Of a DNA stretch of 64,000 nucleotides, positions 28,653 to 47,551 are shown in pieces. Under the pieces are notes generated by a model. It saw only the letters and a list, made by a program, of their open reading frames with translations, did no database searches and had not been told where the DNA came from. Each line of letters starts with the position of its first letter. Positions within the stretch are counted from its first letter, which is position 1. The stretch lies in the NCBI GenBank assembly GCA_965198235.1, contig OZ240248.1, positions 4,128,001-4,192,000 on the forward strand, read 5' to 3'. A program made the position numbers and the translations under genes. Source of the stretch: Candidatus Poribacteria bacterium (GTDB taxonomy: Bacteria; Poribacteria; WGA-4E; WGA-3G).

Positions 28653-29024
28653 ATGCCGACAATTAATCAGTTAATCAAAAAACCGCGCAAAAGGTCCCGG
28701 AAAAAAACAAAATCTCCGGTACTGGAGCAGTGTCCCCAGCGGCGCGGTATCTGTCTACAAGTGAAAACAGTAACGCCGAACAAACCGAATTCCGCACTGC
28801 GTAAAGTCGCTCGGGTGAGGTTCACCTCTGGCTACGAAGCTACTTGTTACATTCCGGGGATCGATCACAATTTGCAAGAACACTCAGTCGTTTTAGTCCG
28901 GGGCGGGAAAGTGAAAGACCTCTCTAATGTGCGTTACCACATCGTCCGCGGCAAATTGGATACAGCAGGTGTCGATAACCGTCGCCAAGGTCGTTCAAAG
29001 TACGGCGCACGGAAACCGGGTTAA
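28653..29024 (+). CDS. rpsL: 30S protein S12 (atypical loops)
   Basis: [24 protein letters not shown]. Confidence 0.98.
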
Positions 29025-29042
29025 ACAACGGAGGAAGAGTAG

Positions 29043-29513
29043 ATGCCGAGACGTGGAAACATCAGCAAACGGGATGTAAGCCCTGACGCGAAATATAACA
29101 GCAAGCTCGTGTCAAAATTCATCAATAGCCTCATGTTGGATGGAAAGAAAAGCACCGCGCAATCGATCCTATATGAGAGTTTTCAGATTATTGAATCCCG
29201 GGCGAACGAAGATGGCTTCGCCGTGTTCCGTCAAGCAATCAACAACGTCAAGCCGGTGTTGGAAATCAGACCTCGACGTGTAGGCAGCCAGACGTATCAA
29301 GTCCCTGTTGATGTAAAAGCAGAACGGAAACAGCGGTTGGCTTTTAGTTGGATTATTCAATCTGCTCGCGCCCGCGGCGAAAGACGGATGGCAGAACGCC
29401 TCGCAGGCGAAATACTTGAAGCGTCACAGAACGACGGCGGCGCGATCCGCAGGAAAATGGATCAGCATCGAATGGCAGAAGCTAACCGAGCTTTCGCACA
29501 TTACCGATGGTAA
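29043..29513 (+). CDS. rpsG: 30S protein S7
   Basis: [26 protein letters not shown]. Confidence 0.98.
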
Positions 29514-29568
29514 AAATGCCTCACGGTTTATAGCCGAAGCGTTAACACACAAAAGGAGTCGTCCAACC

Positions 29569-31686
29569 GTGGCGAACAAAAAAAATAGCGACCCACAACG
29601 CTTAGAACTGCCCCACATGCGAAATATCGGCATCATGGCACACATTGATGCCGGGAAGACCACTGTCAGCGAACGCATTCTCTATTATACCGGTAGAGTC
29701 TATCGGATCGGGGACGTAGACGATGGCACCACAACTATGGACTGGATGGTGCAAGAACAGGAACGCGGCATTACGATTACTGCCGCCGCAACAACCTGTC
29801 AGTGGAAAAAACACCAAATCAATATCATTGATACACCGGGGCATATTGACTTTACCGTCGAAGTTGAACGCTCACTTCGCGTCCTCGACGGTGCAGTCGC
29901 GGTTTTCTGCGCAGTCGGCGGGGTTGAACCTCAATCTGAAACTGTTTGGAGACAAGCAGATAAATACGACATACCTCGAATCGCATTTGTCAACAAAATG
30001 GATCGAACCGGTGCCGATTTCTTCCGCACTGTTGAAATGATGGAAGAACGCCTCGGTGCCACAGCCATCCCAGTGCAACTTCCAATCGGTTCAGCAGAAC
30101 AATTCACAGGTATCGTAGACCTCATCTCCATGAAAGGGCAGATCTGGAACGTAGGAACAGACGCTGGTAGCGATGGCACTGTCATCCAAGAGACAGACAT
30201 CCCCAAGGAAATGGAGGAAATGGCAACCGAATACCGCGATCGGATGTTAGAGGCTATCGCCGATTACGATGACGAACTTATAGATAAATACTTGGACGGT
30301 GTCGAAGCTTCACCTGAAGAGATTAAAGCAGGAATACGAAATGCTGTAATTGTTGGCAAAGTCGTCCCAATCCTGTGCGGAACTGCTCTAAAAAATAAAG
30401 GCGTACAACCCCTCTTAGACGCGATTGTCTCCTATCTACCCGCACCCACCGACATGCCACCTGTCGTAGGGTTTAACCCGAAGACCGAAGAAGAGGAAGC
30501 GCGTCCCCCAAATGATAATGAACCTTTCTGTGCATTGGCGTTCAAGATTACCACAGATCCACACGTCGGCAAACTTACTTATCTGCGTGTGTACTCCGGC
30601 ATCCTCAATAAAGGGAATACCGTCTACAACAGTAAAACTGGGAAACACGAACGAATTGGGCGGCTCATGCAGATGCACGCCAACAAACGGGAAGAACACC
30701 AAGCCGTTCACGCAGGCGACATCGCCGCTGTAATCGGGTTAAAAGACCTCTCAACTGGTGATACACTCTGCGATCCGAAGGCACATATCACATTAGAAAC
30801 GATGGTGTTCCCGCTGCCGGTGATGGCTATCGCCATTGAGCCCCGCACACAATCTGATATTGACAAACTCAACCTCGCCCTCTCGAAACTCGCTGAAGAA
30901 GATCCGACATTTAAAGTGCATCAAGACAGCGAAACAGGACAAACATTATTGTCCGGTATGGGTGAACTTCATCTTGAAATCATCGTCGATAGGCTCGTGC
31001 GTGAGTTTAACGTCTCCGCGAATGTTGGTAACCCACAAGTCGCCTATCGGGAAACGATCCTCAAAGCAGTTAAGTCTGTGGGACGTTTCATACGTCAATC
31101 TGGTGGTAGAGGTCAATTTGGGCACGTTGTGATCGAGGTTGAACCCATGGAAAAAGGGACAGGCTTTGAGTTCATTGACGCAACCAAAGGTGGCGTTATT
31201 CCGCAAGAATACATCCCAGCAGTCCGGAAAGGCATTGAGAACGCGATGAATACGGGTGTCTTGGCTGGCTACCCAGTTGTTGATGTATCAGTAAAACTGG
31301 TAGACGGTTCGCATCACGCCGTAGACTCATCAGAAATGGCGTTCTTCATCGCTGGTTCGATGGCGTTTAAAGACGCATTGAAGCGTGCGACCCCGACACT
31401 CCTTGAACCAATTATGGACGTTGAGGTTATCGTCCCCGACGAATACCTCGGTAAAGTGATAGGTGATTTGAATTCGCGGCGGGCACAGATACGTCAGACA
31501 GAAACGCAAGCGAAATCTCGTATTCAAGTTATTCATGTTGATGTCCCTCTCTCAGAAATGTTTGGGTACGTCAAAACCCTTAGGTCCCTCACACAGGGCA
31601 GAGCGAACTACTCTATGGAGTTTGCACATTATAACGAAGTCCCGACAAGCGTGATGGAAGACTTAATTTCATCAGCGAATCGTTAA
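29569..31686 (+). CDS. fusA: elongation factor G
   Basis: [34 protein letters not shown] start after AAGGAG. Confidence 0.98.
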
Positions 31687-31728
31687 TAAGTAGTTGTAAA
31701 TAAGTAGTTGTAAATAAGTAGTTGTAAA
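31687..31728. repeat. perfect tandem repeat, 3 x 14 bp
   Basis: (TAAGTAGTTGTAAA)x3 directly after the fusA stop. Confidence 0.9.
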
Positions 31729-31919
31729 GTGTCCGAACTGTGGGAGTGTTCACTTCCCATAAGCGGACACAGGATTTGGTTAAACGGTGTGTTCGGACAT
31801 CAAAACGTTTGAACACCTTATAGAAACGGGAATGCGCAGTTTTACAGTTATAGTGAAAATACTGGAAACCGCGTCTACAACGCCCTCAATAATAAACTTT
31901 TAGTGGAGCTCGGACAAAA

Positions 31920-45761: not shown

Positions 45762-45838
45762 AACTATAGGAATCTGTTAACCATCAACTCGTGCTTTAAC
45801 ATCTATAATGGAGTCGAGTTGATGGTTAAACTGCTCCA
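45762..45838 (+). repeat. dispersed palindromic element, copy 3 (lacks the ~21-nt insert)
   Basis: Matches 33545-33645 apart from the GAAGAAACACCCAAGCAAAAAC segment and a few substitutions. Confidence 0.88.
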
Positions 45839-45963
45839 CTACGTTTCGCAGGGGTTCTCGGTGAATTCCAACCCACTTCAGGTGCTCAAAGGTTTCTGAG
45901 TTCACCAGAAGCCATTGTGGAACGATGTCCAGGATCCTATAGTAAAAAAAAAGGAGGAAACCC

Positions 45964-46356
45964 ATGGCAAGGATCGCAGGGGTTGATTTACCCCGAAACA
46001 AACGGGTGGATATTGCCTTGACGGCAATTTATGGCGTTGGGCGTTACACCGCAGCGCAAATTGTCACCGATCTGGATCTCGATCCCGAGAAAAAAGTTGA
46101 CAGCCTCGCCGAAAACGAGATCGGTCAACTCCGAGACAAAGTTCAAGAGTATAAAATTGAAGGTGATTTGCGCCGTGAAGTCGATCAGAATATTAAACGG
46201 CTGATGGACATCAACAGTTATCGTGGTCTGCGACATCGTCGGCAGTTACCCGTCCGCGGGCAGCGCACGAATACTAACGCACGCACCCGTAAAGGGAAGG
46301 CACGAACCATCTCTGTCGGTAGAAAAGCCAAAGAGGCAGCACGCAAGAGCGGCTAA
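45964..46356 (+). CDS. rpsM: 30S protein S13
   Basis: [21 protein letters not shown]. Confidence 0.98.
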
Positions 46357-46467
46357 TGAGAAATGGTTTTGATCATCAACTCGTGCCTAAAATAGAATGT
46401 TAAAGCACGAGTTGATGGTTAAAACCGATAGCCGACTGCCGAAGACTCATAAGAAAGGAGAACCGTT

Positions 46468-46839
46468 TTGCGTGGAAGAAGACGAGAACGCAAGAACGTT
46501 CCCGAAGGTATCGCACATATACAAGCTACCTTCAACAACACAATCATTACAATCACAGACTTAAACGGGAACACTGTTGCTTGGGCGAACGCAGGGATGA
46601 CTTTCACAGGTTCACGAAAGTCAACGCCTTTTGCCGCACAACAGACAGCGGAAGCATGCGCCCGCAGAGCAATGGATCACGGCATGAAACGCGTGGAGGT
46701 TAGAGTCAAAGGACCCGGATCCGGGAGAGAGTCTTCTATACGAGCACTCGCTGCAGCCGGACTCGACATTACCTTAATGAAGGACGTGACTCCTATCCCA
46801 CACAATGGATGTCGTCCCCCTAAGAGACGACGGGTTTAA
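46468..46839 (+). CDS. rpsK: 30S protein S11
   Basis: [30 protein letters not shown]. Confidence 0.98.
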
Positions 46840-46915
46840 GTTGAGCCGCAACTCGACTCCGATACAAGACTTAAACGCACGAGTTGCGGGTCAAATTCAC
46901 ATACAAGGAGAGGGA

Positions 46916-47551
46916 ATGAGTAGATACTTAGATTCAGTCTGTAAATTATGCCGACGGGAAGGTGAAAAACTCTTTCTGAAAGGGCGTCGATGCAACGGAC
47001 CTAAATGTTCTTTTGAACGCCGCAGTTACCCGCCTGGCGAACACGGTCAGACACCGCCACGCAGAAGTCGCGGGGACAATTTCCGACGACAGTTGCGCGC
47101 AAAACAGAAAGTCAAACGCACTTACGGTGTTTTTGAGAAACAATTCCGGAACTATTACTTCAAAGCAGCGCGCCAAACAGGTATCGCTGGCGAGAATTTA
47201 ATTAGCTTCCTTGAACGCAGGTTAGACAACGTCGTTTACCGACTCGGGTTCGCAACCTCCCGAAATCAGGCGCGTCAACTCGTGAAGCACAACCACTTCA
47301 CTGTCAACGGCAAGCGGGTTAATATCCCATCTTATATCGTGAAAGTTGGCGATGTCATTATACCTCGCGAACGGAGCCGGAACCTTGCGACTATTCAAGA
47401 GGCATTAGAATACTCACAGCATCGCGGCGCACCTGAATGGCTCGAAATTGATGCGGACAAAGCAGAAGGGCGTGTTCAAGGGACACCCGTGGTAGAGCAA
47501 ATCGCCATCGACCTTGAAACGCAACTTATCATTGAACTTTACTCCCGATAG
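46916..47551 (+). CDS. rpsD: 30S protein S4 (Zn-binding type)
   Basis: CKLCRREG, PPGEHG, LERRLDNVVYRLG. Confidence 0.98.
   Translation: MSRYLDSVCKLCRREGEKLFLKGRRCNGPKCSFERRSYPPGEHGQTPPRRSRGDNFRRQLRAKQKVKRTYGVFEKQFRNYYFKAARQTGIAGENLISFLERRLDNVVYRLGFATSRNQARQLVKHNHFTVNGKRVNIPSYIVKVGDVIIPRERSRNLATIQEALEYSQHRGAPEWLEIDADKAEGRVQGTPVVEQIAIDLETQLIIELYSR

What the first reader, a model, noticed from the sequence alone, without database searches (positions are those of the whole stretch)
28653..47551. Synthesis: a ribosome apparently remodelled at its decoding, mRNA-channel and tRNA-contact sites
Seen: intact, syntenic r-protein genes carry substitutions or indels in motifs that are normally nearly invariant. 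These include both decoding loops of S12, S5 loop 2, S3 entry-channel residues, the S7 hairpin, the L5 and L16 tRNA loops, the L22 hairpin, the L6 C-terminus and EF-Tu domain 3; IF1 outside the operon is also altered. Known: these sites govern fidelity and sensitivity to streptomycin, spectinomycin and macrolides. Inference: a co-evolved non-canonical decoding centre in which restrictive S12 changes are balanced by ram-like S5/S4 changes, possibly an intrinsically multi-antibiotic-resistant ribosome of a sponge-symbiont lineage.
Basis: partly seen in the sequence, partly recalled or inferred. Interest (0 to 1): 0.85.

Follow-up and report, generated by a model that had tools for sequence, protein, structure and literature searches.

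The report
Poribacteria ribosome with rewired accuracy sites
This sponge-associated Poribacteria genome, like its whole lineage, carries a normal set of ribosome genes in which the small patch that sets decoding accuracy and binds streptomycin has been rebuilt in both protein and rRNA, so the ribosome probably ignores streptomycin.

Summary
The window holds the intact, single-copy str–S10–spc–alpha ribosomal gene cluster of a Candidatus Poribacteria genome. S12 has K42N, R85K, P90S and G91N (mature E. coli numbering). S5 has K23R, V25G, G28R, G87S and G109H. S3 has R131K, R132Q and K135R. S4 has Y51F, G52R, V53R and E57A, and L22 has R84W and R92M. L5, L16 and L6 carry loop insertions.

Against four outgroup phyla plus E. 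coli, the excess is confined to S12, S4, S5 and S3: 14 of 140 universal columns are changed, against 17 of 687 in 22 other proteins. This is not a general long branch.

The genome's rRNA co-varies at the same patch: 16S U13A/U20C/A915G, C18A/G917U and G505A/C526U. The 23S carries G2253A, U2555C and C2658U/G2663A. The changes are nested from phylum to class to family.

The decoding core, h34, A2058/2059 and L4 are canonical. The "altered IF1" is a paralogue, and a normal infA exists elsewhere.

Best reading: stepwise rRNA–protein co-evolution of the streptomycin pocket. Restrictive-type changes are offset by ram-type ones. Streptomycin insensitivity is likely; multi-drug resistance is unsupported.

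The parts
28653..29024 (+). rpsL (uS12), 123 aa. Codon 43 = N (28779-28781). Codons 86-92 = KVKDLSN (28908-28928). In mature E. coli numbering these are K42N, R85K, P90S and G91N.
   Evidence: TIGR00981 207 bits against a cut-off of 113. Column counts. Single copy. Covered by contigs of other runs.
29043..29513 (+). rpsG (uS7). G82S at 29286-29288 in the beta-hairpin; otherwise ordinary.
   Evidence: 2 of 33 universal columns changed.
29569..31686 (+). fusA (EF-G). The start codon is uncertain. 0 of 70 universal columns changed.
   Evidence: Two further EF-G paralogues lie elsewhere in the genome.
31920..33119 (+). tuf (EF-Tu). W325 and N326 (32892-32897) correspond to E. coli H320W and T321N in the domain 3 GGRHTPFF motif. 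Kirromycin sites are canonical.
   Evidence: 2 of 160 universal columns changed.
33238..36877 (+). rpsJ, rplC, rplD, rplW, rplB and rpsS (S10, L3, L4, L23, L2, S19). 0-2 universal columns changed in each. L4 K63 and G66 are canonical.
37004..37357 (+). rplV (uL22). W85 (37256-37258) corresponds to E. coli R84W. M93 (37280-37282) corresponds to R92M. S11 corresponds to R11S. The first two lie in the tunnel hairpin.
   Evidence: Outgroups have R84 in 108 of 108.
37437..38285 (+). rpsC (uS3). KQAMR (37824-37838) corresponds to E. coli R131K, R132Q and K135R at the mRNA entry channel. A C-terminal extension of about 70 aa, rich in R/S/G/E, runs from 38079 to 38285.
38325..38732 (+). rplP (uL16). 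One-residue insertion in the RMGKG-KG loop (38568-38585) and K76Q. The insertion is specific to the genus.
38820..40164 (+). rpmC, rpsQ, rplN and rplX (L29, S17, L14, L24). Ordinary apart from a short L24 C-terminus.
40253..40816 (+). rplE (uL5). 8-aa insertion in the region 40493-40519 (GPSKLGRTP) in the loop before GCKVTLR, plus R110Q.
   Evidence: Insertion present in 24 of 29 other family genomes, 13 of 28 genus genomes, 0 of 17 other Poribacteria and 0 of 129 outgroups.
40928..41601 (+). rpsN (61-aa zinc type) and rpsH. Ordinary.
41641..42216 (+). rplF (uL6). YKPCKG (42136-42153) carries a 1-aa insertion and G159C near the C-terminal domain that faces the sarcin-ricin loop.
   Evidence: That the domain faces the sarcin-ricin loop is recalled, not tested.
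42551..42895 (+). rplR (L18). Ordinary.
43050..43562 (+). rpsE (uS5). RVGKGR (43122-43139) corresponds to E. coli K23R, V25G and G28R in loop 2. S54 corresponds to K52S. S89 (43314-43316) corresponds to G87S. H111 (43380-43382) corresponds to G109H, in the stretch before R112 at the S4-S5 interface.
43771..45750 (+). rplO, secY and rpmJ (L36 at 45634-45750). There is no L30 gene between rpsE and rplO.
45964..46839 (+). rpsM and rpsK (S13, S11). Ordinary.
46916..47551 (+). rpsD (uS4). FRRQLRA (47081-47101) corresponds to E. coli Y51F, G52R, V53R and E57A. Also T86A and E197T.
5821..6027 (-). Divergent IF1 paralogue. This is the 'altered IF1' of the finding and is not the cell's only IF1.
   Evidence: TIGR00008 89 bits here against 126 bits for the canonical copy at G000:C1:4398801-4399007.

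Best explanation
**What it is.** This is the ordinary, single-copy ribosomal gene cluster of a Poribacteria genome. Its lineage has rebuilt, step by step and in both rRNA and protein, the junction of 16S h1, h18, h27 and h44 with uS12. That junction binds streptomycin and governs the open/closed movement of the 30S subunit during tRNA selection. The uS4-uS5 interface, uS5 loop 2, the uS3 entry-channel residues and three functional 23S loops have changed as well.

**Order of events, shown on genomes.**
1. Phylum: 16S U13A and C18A/G917U; 23S C2658U/G2663A; S5 K23R; L22 R84W.
2. Class: 16S U20C/A915G and G505A/C526U; S12 G91N.
3. Two families: S12 P90S; S5 V25G, G87S and G109H; S4 G52R.
4. Own family: S12 K42N; S5 G28R; S3 R131K and K135R; EF-Tu T321N; 23S G2253A.
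5. Own genus: 23S U2555C (it also occurs in one genome of the sister genus); the L16 insertion; further turnover at S12 residue 42 (N, K or R).

**Mechanism, inferred.**
- An early rRNA change in the U13.U20.A915 triple and the central and 530 pseudoknots altered the surface that the S12 loops touch.
- S12, then S5 and S4, followed by compensation.
- Restrictive and streptomycin-resistance-type states accumulated: S12 K42N, P90S, G91N; 16S G915, U526.
- Ram or compensatory-type states accumulated alongside them: S5 G28R, G87S/C, G109H; the S4 residue 51-57 region; possibly 23S G2253A.
- Net accuracy therefore stays workable, but the streptomycin pocket is lost.

**Predicted phenotype.** Intrinsic high-level streptomycin insensitivity is likely. 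Reduced spectinomycin sensitivity through S5 loop 2 is possible. There is no basis for predicting macrolide resistance.
For: **Organism and gene identity.** The loci returned by the L16 search are titled Candidatus Poribacteria.

**The substitutions are real and lineage-wide.**
- S12 G92N is present in 68 of 68 Poribacteria and 0 of 49 outgroups.
- S12 residue 43 is N in 43, R in 6, S in 2 and K in 4 of 55 family genomes. It is K in 12 and T in 1 of 13 other Poribacteria.
- S5 G28R is present in 57 of 57 family genomes, 0 of 16 other Poribacteria and 0 of 114 outgroups.

**The nesting** was read off a concatenated-protein tree.

**Enrichment is local.**
- S12+S4+S5+S3: 14 of 140 universal columns changed. 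The other 22 proteins: 17 of 687 (Fisher p=1.7e-4).
- On leave-one-phylum-out columns the window's other proteins change at 3.2-4.2%, against outgroup medians of 1.8-5.1%.
- On the same columns its four-protein set changes at 9.9-12.4%, against outgroup medians of 1.7-7.3%.

**16S.**
- Covariations at 13/20/915, 18/917 and 505/526 sit in unambiguous alignment. They fall at positions that the Rfam consensus prints in capitals, except u13.
- A13, A18 and U917 occur in 38 of 38 Poribacteria 16S sequences. C20 and G915 occur in 37 of 38.
- The 16S as a whole is not unusually diverged: 53-69 changes against 21-78 for the outgroups on the same columns.

**23S.**
- G2253A, U2555C and C2658U/G2663A are seen.
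- A2253 is present in 31 of 31 family genomes with a match (41 searched). G2253 is present in 18 of 18 genomes of the other families of the order.
- U2658/A2663 is present in 52 of 52 genomes with a 23S match (61 searched).

**Turnover continues inside the pocket.**
- At least 7 changes at S12 residue 43 and 5 at residue 91 are needed on the tree.
- R43 always travels with K86, R88 and A91 (6 of 6).
- The two genomes of the sister genus g10 have 16S A526 together with S12 S43.

**Literature (passages read).**
- The streptomycin pocket is formed by h1, h18, h27, h44 and uS12, with contacts at C526 and G527 (PMC10525438).
- U13.U20.A915 is a base triple (PMC3278836).
- Small side chains at S12 P90 give resistance, bulky ones give dependence. 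P90, G91 and K43 are sites of dependence mutations (PMC3884664).
- K42N is hyperaccurate and is compensated in rpsD and rpsE, including rpsE G86C and G108V/A (PMC13631001).
- P. putida uS5 G29R, equivalent to E. coli G28, raises readthrough and frameshifting (PMC12713390).

**Sequence support.** Contigs from independent runs confirm the S12 codons.
Against: - No phenotype was measured. Every functional statement rests on analogy with single mutations in E. coli, Salmonella, Thermus, P. putida or M. tuberculosis, whose effects can differ in another background. For example, P. putida G28D and G29R act in opposite directions (PMC12713390).
- The outgroup panel covers only four phyla plus E. coli, and Bacillota dominate it. 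For 23S there are only three outgroups, and for 16S five.
- The four-protein set was chosen after seeing the data.
- One Bacillota genome reaches 18% changed columns in the same four proteins. One Armatimonadota genome has S12 R43/A91.
- The 16S h1/h27 signature is not unique. Among metagenome 16S sequences only 74-78% identical to Poribacteria, 22 of the 23 that include the 5' end also carry A13/A18 with G915/U917.
- S12 K87R also occurs in 8 of 49 outgroups.
- The match between the published S5 'G86/G108' and gene positions 87/109 is my inference. It rests on the fact that gene position 86 is a lysine.
- Direction and cause are not established. Whether the rRNA changed first and the proteins followed is read from nesting alone.
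Confidence: 0.6

Rival explanations
1. Antibiotic-driven adaptation. Long exposure to streptomycin-like aminoglycosides in the sponge holobiont or sediment selected classical target-site resistance alleles again and again. The S5 and S4 changes are the usual fitness compensation that follows.
For: - S12 residue 42 has been replaced at least 7 times on the tree. The states N, R, S and T in the sampled genomes, and I in database relatives, include classical resistance alleles. That N, T and R are classical is recalled for E. coli; K43R is stated in PMC6183457.
- 16S residue 526 is C, U or A, and 915 is G.
- P90S and P90A are the small-side-chain resistance type (PMC3884664).
- The S5 sites match laboratory compensation of K42N (PMC13631001).
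Against: - The oldest steps (16S 13, 18/917, then 20/915; S12 G91N) lie deep in the phylum, including lineages outside the own class. They are paired covariations that preserve structure, which looks like structural co-evolution rather than repeated drug selection.
- 23S, L22, S3 and EF-Tu sites unrelated to streptomycin changed on the same branches.
- Four genomes of the genus went back to K42.
- No call gave evidence of aminoglycoside exposure. The search for papers on Poribacteria and streptomycin (listing and abstract starts only) showed no relevant title.
Confidence: 0.2
2. A phylum signature with no change in function. These are idiosyncratic but fully compensated substitutions of the kind every deep lineage carries somewhere in its ribosome. 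Their coincidence with drug-resistance sites reflects only that these sites are the best studied.
For: - Total divergence of the 16S and 23S is within the outgroup range.
- The decoding core, h34, the peptidyl transferase core and A2058/2059 are canonical.
- Other deep lineages share the h1/h27 signature.
- Resistance sites are heavily studied, so matches are easy to find.
Against: - The excess at universal columns is 3-5 fold and confined to four neighbouring 30S proteins. The other 22 proteins behave like those of other phyla.
- Several changes reproduce a selected mutant at the same residue: S5 G28R, and G87C in the sister genus, are identical substitutions; K42N is the classical allele; S12 P90S/A have the small side chains of the resistance class (P90G/A/C); S5 G109H is at the published site with a different residue.
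- Loss of the K42 side chain and of the C526 and A915 identities would very probably affect drug binding even if fidelity is unchanged.
Confidence: 0.15
3. General long branch, relaxed selection in a symbiont, or an assembly or contamination artefact.
For: Scores against the L16 family model fall stepwise toward the own genus, from about 200 to about 176 bits. The genome is metagenome-type, with 5.3% estimated contamination.
Against: - Universal columns in the 22 other proteins are changed at 2.5%, like other phyla.
- The same states occur in dozens of separate species-level genomes, many of them single-contig.
- Contigs of runs from other studies reproduce the S12 codons.
- All genes are full length, single copy and syntenic.
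Confidence: 0.03

Closest known systems
Laboratory rpsL K42N (restrictive, streptomycin-resistant) mutants of E. coli and Salmonella with compensatory rpsD/rpsE mutations
   Same: The S12 substitution is the same (K42N). S5 is substituted at the glycines reported as compensatory: G86C and G108V/A in PMC13631001, which correspond to gene positions 87 and 109. S4 is changed near residues 51-57 and at 197.
   Different: - Here the states are fixed in a whole family of uncultured bacteria.
- They come with further S12 changes (R85K, P90S, G91N), S5 loop-2 changes and rRNA covariations.
- The order of appearance differs: the S5 G87 and G109 changes predate K42N.
- The phenotype is untested.
rrs streptomycin-resistance mutations of Mycobacterium tuberculosis (530 loop and 915 region) and rpsL K43R/K88R
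   Same: The same two rRNA regions and the same S12 lysines are affected (PMC6183457, passage). A subclade of the genus has R43 with R88.
   Different: - In Poribacteria the rRNA changes are paired covariations (A505-U526; A13.C20.G915) that keep the structure, and they are ancient and lineage-wide.
- The correspondence of individual clinical mutations to E. coli positions 526 and 915 is recalled, not read.
uS5 loop-2 mutants: E. coli G28D (ram, cold-sensitive) and P. putida G29R (spectinomycin-selected)
   Same: The residue is the same, and for P. putida the substitution is identical (glycine to arginine). That mutant raised UGA readthrough about 1.9-fold and raised frameshifting (PMC12713390, passages).
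   Different: - P. putida G29R was hypersensitive to streptomycin in a wild-type S12 background.
- Here G28R sits with S12 K42N, P90S and G91N.
- K23R and V25G accompany it.
Thermus thermophilus S12 P90 series and the P90L/C1490U pseudo-revertant (PMC3884664)
   Same: It shows that S12 residue 90 and h44 nucleotide 1490 interact and can compensate each other. Small side chains at residue 90 give resistance rather than dependence, and Poribacteria have S or A there.
   Different: These are single engineered or selected changes in one strain. Poribacteria combine P90S/A with G91N, which that paper lists only as a site of dependence mutations.
Divergent ribosomes of other deep uncultured lineages, for example candidate phyla radiation bacteria that mismatch the 926R primer
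   Same: [quoted passage not shown] Unidentified metagenome 16S sequences share A13/A18/G915/U917. Poribacteria also lack L30.
   Different: Those lineages keep G505/C526. Their S12 and S5 states are unknown to me, and their identity was not established here.

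Membership tests
Bacterial uS12 (NCBIfam TIGR00981 rpsL_bact) | Full-length match above the curated cut-off | tested here: met
   207.2 bits against a cut-off of 112.95, model positions 1-122 of 124.
Bacterial uS12 (NCBIfam TIGR00981 rpsL_bact) | Conserved loop residues P41-K42-K43-P44-N45-S46-A47 and R85-V-K87-D88-L-P90-G91 (mature numbering) | tested here: not met
   K42N, R85K, P90S and G91N are changed. K43, P44, N45, S46, A47, V86, K87, D88 and L89 are kept. It is still plainly uS12; only the canonical loop sequence fails.
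Target-site streptomycin resistance, rpsL class | Substitution of K42 or K87, or a small side chain at P90 | tested here: met
   N at residue 42 and S at residue 90. The rule for residue 90 is from PMC3884664 (passage).
Target-site streptomycin resistance, rpsL class | Raised streptomycin MIC or loss of drug binding | not testable with these tools
Target-site streptomycin resistance, rrs class (530 loop / 915 region) | Base change in the 530-loop pseudoknot or at nucleotides 912-915 | tested here: met
   C526U with G505A, and A915G with U20C and U13A. The regions are named in PMC6183457 (passage).
uS5 ram / spectinomycin-resistance alleles (loop 2) | Substitution in loop 2 residues 20-33, in particular G28 | tested here: met
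   K23R, V25G and G28R. Outgroups have G28 in 114 of 114.
uS5 ram / spectinomycin-resistance alleles (loop 2) | Raised misreading or spectinomycin resistance | not testable with these tools
   Known only by analogy with P. putida G29R (PMC12713390).
rRNA-based spectinomycin resistance (h34) | Change at G1064/C1192 or neighbouring nucleotides | tested here: not met
   Nucleotides 1063-1068 and 1189-1194 are identical to all five outgroups.
Macrolide-resistant ribosome | Change at 23S A2058/A2059/2057-2611, L4 K63/G66, or deletion of L22 residues 82-84 | tested here: not met
   23S nucleotides 2057-2062 and 2609-2611 are canonical. L4 residues 62-67 are canonical. L22 has substitutions (M82R, R84W, R92M), not the deletion, and their effect is unknown.
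Altered decoding centre proper | Change at G530, A1492, A1493, C1054, A1408 or nucleotides 1400-1407 and 1494-1501 | tested here: not met
   All are identical to the five outgroups.
Altered IF1 as sole initiation factor 1 | No canonical infA in the genome | tested here: not met
   A canonical copy scores 126 bits at G000:C1:4398801-4399007. The window copy, at 89 bits, is a paralogue.

The most novel reading that the evidence does not exclude
Poribacteria, and perhaps a wider unrecognised set of deep lineages that share 16S A13/A18/G915/U917, run a ribosome with a different speed-accuracy set-point.

- It would be a natural, fixed counterpart of the laboratory 'streptomycin-resistant plus compensated' ribosome.
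- It was built by a long cascade of rRNA-protein co-evolution.
- In one family the cascade culminated in a burst that reached the 50S P loop (G2253A, with C2254 then free to vary), the A loop (U2555C) and EF-Tu domain 3.
- Such a ribosome would be immune to streptomycin-class drugs and would decode and proofread by a shifted balance of 30S domain closure.

This could be used to enrich these uncultured bacteria selectively. It would also serve as a natural experiment on how far the accuracy network can be rewired.
Probability: 0.25. Interest if true: 0.8.

Novelty: new variant of a known kind. Interest (0 to 1): 0.62.

Why it matters
**For ribosome biology.** The sites involved are textbook ones for translational accuracy and streptomycin action, and they are normally treated as invariant. 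A whole phylum changed them stepwise, with paired rRNA covariations and matching protein changes. That gives a natural series of intermediates for studying how S12, S4/S5, h1/h18/h27 and the 50S tRNA loops constrain one another.

**For cultivation.** Poribacteria are uncultured. A well-founded prediction of intrinsic streptomycin insensitivity, and perhaps spectinomycin insensitivity, suggests a selective enrichment strategy.

**For surveys.** It explains in functional terms why these bacteria mismatch the 27F, 515F and 926R primer sites. The 926R mismatch is noted in bioRxiv 10.1101/2020.11.09.375543. Such mismatches should be read as co-evolved structure, not as noise.

**For resistance annotation.** Pipelines that flag rpsL K43N or rrs 526/915 variants would call these environmental genomes resistant without any recent selection.

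Tried and rejected
- **First panel.** 77 outgroup loci, mostly Bacillota, plus E. coli. Bacillota-specific columns inflated the counts (S12 16 of 83). I replaced it with a four-phylum panel.
- **Wider outgroups.**
  - E. coli could not serve as a centre for sampling Pseudomonadota.
  - The single genome-contig scan returned mainly Bacillota.
rRNA conservation therefore rests on 5 outgroups for 16S and 3 for 23S, plus the Rfam consensus.
- **23S family search.** The RF02541 search gave no answer three times. I found the 23S by blastn instead. Two of four fetched outgroup regions held no 23S.
- **Composite A-loop-to-SRL pattern.** It matched only 11 of 61 genomes, and the printed match was cut before the SRL. 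The spread of U2555C outside the genus is therefore unresolved. The SRL was tested alone.
- **RimO.** The best hit scores 292 bits, under the 357 cut-off. Whether S12 D88 is modified is left open. RsmG is present.
- **Literature.**
  - Poribacteria plus streptomycin: 31 papers hold both words; I saw 10 titles and abstract starts, none on this subject.
  - 16S rRNA + A915G + streptomycin: 0 papers.
  - Fieseler 2004 and Powers & Noller 1991 are not held.
  - PMC2640153 and PMC3964911 gave nothing useful.
  - What I say about U13/914/915 mutagenesis, G2253, U2555 and C2658-G2663 mutants is recalled, not read.
  - Supplements were not consulted.
- **Earlier notes of this scan.** None fitted.
- **Second ribosome type.** Rejected, because every r-protein gene is single copy.
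- **Kirromycin-type EF-Tu changes.** None found.
- **Run X9.** Its contig over S12 codon 43 carries three unlisted differences, so I do not count it as support.

Full report
**What is in the window**

The stretch 28653-49252 is the str-S10-spc-alpha gene cluster. It holds rpsL, rpsG, fusA and tuf, then rpsJ through rpsQ, rplN through rplO, secY, rpmJ, rpsM, rpsK, rpsD, rpoA and rplQ, all on the plus strand. The ten proteins I scanned all exceed their NCBIfam cut-offs; S12, for example, scores 207 bits against 113, and S5 scores 182 against 164. The window is G000:C1:4128001-4192000 of a 5.17-Mb, two-contig genome. Loci returned by an L16 search carry the title Candidatus Poribacteria, at 96, 87 and 78% identity. 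Every ribosomal protein gene of the cluster is single copy in the genome, so these are the cell's working ribosomal proteins.

**How I tested the observation**

I cut 20-kb ribosomal regions from 75 other Poribacteria genomes:
- 28 of the own genus;
- 29 of other genera of the family;
- 11 of the rest of the order;
- 5 of the class;
- 2 of another class.

The outgroups came from Bacillota, Actinomycetota, Gemmatimonadota and Armatimonadota, plus annotated E. coli operons. Homologues were extracted by tblastn and aligned. A "universal column" is one where the same residue holds at least 90% in each of the four phyla and in E. coli.

The window departs from 31 of 827 such columns:

| Protein | Changed / universal columns | Changes |
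|---|---|---|
| S12 | 6 / 51 | V33I, L57F, G71D, R86K, G92N, K120R |
| S4 | 3 / 29 | Y51F, E57A, T86A |
| S3 | 3 / 35 | R40Q, I57V, R132Q |
| S5 | 2 / 25 | G28R, K52S |
| L22 | 2 / 12 | R11S, R84W |
| S7 | 2 / 33 | V75I, G82S |
| EF-Tu | 2 / 160 | V218I, H320W |
| L23 | 2 / 10 | V55I, V58I |
| All others | 0 or 1 each | |

Two further S12 changes just miss the definition because one Armatimonadota genome differs. These are K43N and P91S, where the outgroups have K or P in 48 of 49.

Numbering here is by gene. In the usual mature E. coli numbering the S12 changes are K42N, R85K, P90S and G91N.

**Is it more than a long branch?**

- S12+S4+S5+S3 are changed at 14 of 140 universal columns. The other 22 proteins are changed at 17 of 687 (Fisher p=1.7e-4).
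- With columns defined by three phyla plus E. coli and the fourth phylum scored as a test case, outgroup genomes show similar rates in the two sets. Medians were 1.7 against 1.8%, 3.2 against 2.9%, 2.0 against 4.4% and 7.3 against 5.1%.
- On the same columns the window shows 9.9-12.4% against 3.2-4.2%.
- The rest of the ribosome is therefore as conserved as in other phyla, and the excess is local.

Two cautions apply. I picked the four-protein set after seeing the per-protein table. One Bacillota genome reaches 18% in the four proteins.

**The individual claims**

- **S12 decoding loops: confirmed.**
- **S5 loop 2: confirmed.** The outgroup sequence NRVAKVVKGGR reads NRVMRVGKGRR here.
- **S3 entry channel: confirmed.** FRRAMK reads FKQAMR.
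- **L22 hairpin: confirmed.** R84W and R92M.
- **L5: confirmed.** An 8-aa insertion is present in 24 of 29 other family genomes, 13 of 28 genus genomes, 0 of 17 other Poribacteria and 0 of 129 outgroups.
- **L16: confirmed.** A one-residue insertion is specific to the genus.
- **L6: confirmed.** One inserted residue plus G159C.
- **S7 hairpin: only G82S.**
- **EF-Tu domain 3: GGRHTPFF reads GGRWNPFF.** The kirromycin sites are canonical.
- **IF1: not confirmed.** The window copy (5821-6027, minus strand, 89 bits) is a second, divergent copy. A canonical infA (126 bits) lies 265 kb away.

**The rRNA**

The 16S (G000:C1:1250147-1251696) was aligned with E. coli, one genome from each of the four phyla, and 37 other Poribacteria 16S sequences.

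The decoding core is identical to all outgroups. That covers nucleotides 517-533 except 526, and 790, 926, 1054, 1400-1409 and 1491-1501. So are the spectinomycin site (1063-1068, 1189-1194) and nucleotides 794, 1518 and 1519.

The changed positions are paired:
- C18A with G917U, a pair of the central pseudoknot;
- U20C with A915G and U13A, so that the U13.U20.A915 triple (PMC3278836, passage) becomes A13.C20.G915;
- G505A with C526U, a pair of the 530 pseudoknot.

All fall in unambiguous alignment. All except u13 fall at positions that the Rfam consensus prints in capitals.

As a whole the 16S is not unusually diverged. It shows 53-69 departures from columns on which four outgroups agree, against 21-78 for the outgroups themselves.

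The 23S lies at about G000:C1:1215470-1217987 and is not linked to the 16S. It keeps A2058/2059, 2447-2453, 2503-2506, 2583-2585, A1067, A1095 and A2660. It carries:
- G2253A in the P loop;
- U2555C in the A loop;
- C2658U with G2663A, the pair that closes the sarcin-ricin tetraloop;
- U746C;
- a covarying 1072/1092/1099 triple.

Only three outgroups were available for the 23S.

**Distribution**

| Level | Changes |
|---|---|
| Phylum-wide | 16S A13, A18 and U917 (38 of 38); SRL U2658/A2663 (52 of 52 genomes with a 23S match, 61 searched); S5 K23R (73 of 73); L22 R84W (70 of 74) |
| Own class | 16S C20/G915 (37 of 38; the exception is the genome of another class); U526 (31 of 38, with C in 5 and A in 2); S12 G91N (68 of 68 Poribacteria with S12, which covers only the own class) |
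| Own family plus one sister family | S12 P90S; S5 V25G, G87S and G109H; S4 G52R |
| Own family only | S12 K42N; S5 G28R (57 of 57, against 0 of 16 other Poribacteria); S3 R131K and K135R; EF-Tu T321N; 23S A2253 (31 of 31 with a match out of 41 searched, against G2253 in 18 of 18 genomes of the other families); unlinked rRNA genes |

Within the family the pocket keeps changing:
- C2254 is A or U in 17 of 31 genomes.
- S12 residue 43 needs at least 7 changes on the tree, and residue 91 at least 5.
- A subclade has reverted to K43.
- Another subclade has R43, always together with K86, R88 and A91 (6 of 6).
- The two genomes of genus g10 have S43 together with 16S A526.
- Among the 120 best database relatives of this S12, 114 have N at residue 92. 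Residue 43 is K, N, R, T or I.

**What it most likely is**

The streptomycin pocket is formed by h1, h18, h27, h44 and uS12, with contacts at C526 and G527 (PMC10525438, passages). The pieces changed here are the h1-h27 triple, the 505-526 pair and the two S12 loops, so the pocket itself has been rebuilt.

Comparison with characterised mutants gives the following.
- S12 P90, G91 and K43 are sites of streptomycin-dependence mutations. Small side chains at P90 give resistance (PMC3884664).
- K42N is hyperaccurate and costly, and it is compensated by ram-type changes in rpsD and rpsE. These include rpsE G86C and G108V/A (PMC13631001).
- E. coli gene position 86 is a lysine and 87 a glycine. Those published numbers must therefore be mature numbering, equal to gene positions 87 and 109. 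These are exactly the glycines replaced here: S or C at 87, and H, P or N at 109. This step is my inference.
- S5 G28R is the same substitution as the P. putida mutant G29R. That mutant was selected on spectinomycin and showed raised readthrough and frameshifting (PMC12713390).

I therefore read the cluster as a stepwise compensatory cascade between rRNA and proteins. It leaves restrictive-type and ram-type states side by side.

The nesting and the covariation are shown. The direction (rRNA first), the offsetting of fidelity effects and the drug phenotype are inferred. The roles I attach to 23S G2253, U2555 and the 2658-2663 pair in fidelity and factor binding are recalled, not read.

**What it is not**

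- **An artefact.** The states recur in dozens of species-level genomes. Contigs of runs from other studies cover S12 codon 43 and codons 86-92 without differences. Run X1 is an RNA library and X3 is a second study; X2 covers codon 43.
- **Private to this genome, or to sponge symbionts.**
- **Unique to Poribacteria at the rRNA level.** A metagenome scan for the 915-region variant found 65 stretches. Of these, 34 are Poribacteria-like. Another 30 are only 74-78% identical to every reference, and 22 of the 23 that include the 5' end also carry A13 and A18. They keep G505/C526.
- **Multi-drug resistance.** There is no basis for macrolide resistance or for rRNA-based spectinomycin resistance.

**Comparison with what is in print**

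[quoted passage not shown] I found nothing that links Poribacteria to S12, S5 or the streptomycin pocket. The searches were those; only listings and passages were read, and supplements were closed.

I rate the finding a new variant of a known kind. The sites and the logic of restrictive-plus-compensatory change are classical. The new element is the fixed, phylum-deep natural series with rRNA covariation.

**Limits**

- The outgroups cover four phyla plus E. coli, with few rRNA outgroups.
- The protein set used for the enrichment test was chosen after seeing the data.
- No structure mapping was done.
- No phenotype was measured.

Noticed in passing
window 5821-6027 (-): A second, divergent IF1-like gene with an N-terminal extension (89 bits to TIGR00008). 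The canonical infA (126 bits) lies outside the window at G000:C1:4398801-4399007. The function of the paralogue is unknown.
   Followed up: partly
window 43562-43771 and whole genome: No L30 (rpmD) gene. TIGR01308 finds nothing in the genome at E<=0.1. A tblastn search with E. coli L30 hits 0 Poribacteria ribosomal loci, against 43 Bacillota, 23 Gemmatimonadota, 22 Actinomycetota and 17 Armatimonadota loci. adk, map and infA are also missing from the cluster. L36 is present at 45634-45750.
   Followed up: partly
G000:C1:1215470-1217987 (23S) and 1250147-1251696 (16S), outside the window: The 16S and 23S genes are about 32 kb apart in this genome and 25-27 kb apart in two genus relatives. In the other families of the order they lie 2-3 kb apart (coordinates). 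The split coincides with the family-level burst of ribosomal changes.
   Followed up: partly
window 38079-38285 (+): uS3 carries a C-terminal extension of about 70 aa rich in R, S, G and E, with an internal repeat (GDRRSGSRQSGEQG occurs twice).
   Followed up: no
loci L278-L339 (metagenome contigs): About 30 metagenome 16S genes are only 74-78% identical to Poribacteria and to every other reference, yet share A13, A18, G915 and U917. Most also have U at 1491. Their lineage was not identified.
   Followed up: partly
L170 (genome G192, Armatimonadota): One outgroup genome has S12 R43 together with A91, the same pair as the R43/K86/R88/A91 haplotype of a Poribacteria subclade. This may be convergence.
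   Followed up: no
L264 (genome G035, class-level Poribacteria 16S): The h44 pair C1409-G1491 is replaced by A1409-U1491, another covariation at an aminoglycoside-contact pair. It is not present in the window's genome.
   Followed up: no
G000:C1:4609477-4611618 and 926469-928505, outside the window: Two further EF-G paralogues, 52% and 43% identical to the fusA of the cluster.
   Followed up: no
G000:C1:3534455-3535768, outside the window: The best match to the RimO family (TIGR01125) scores 292 bits, under the 357-bit cut-off. It is unclear whether S12 D88 is methylthiolated. RsmG is present at G000:C1:5065462-5066040.
   Followed up: partly
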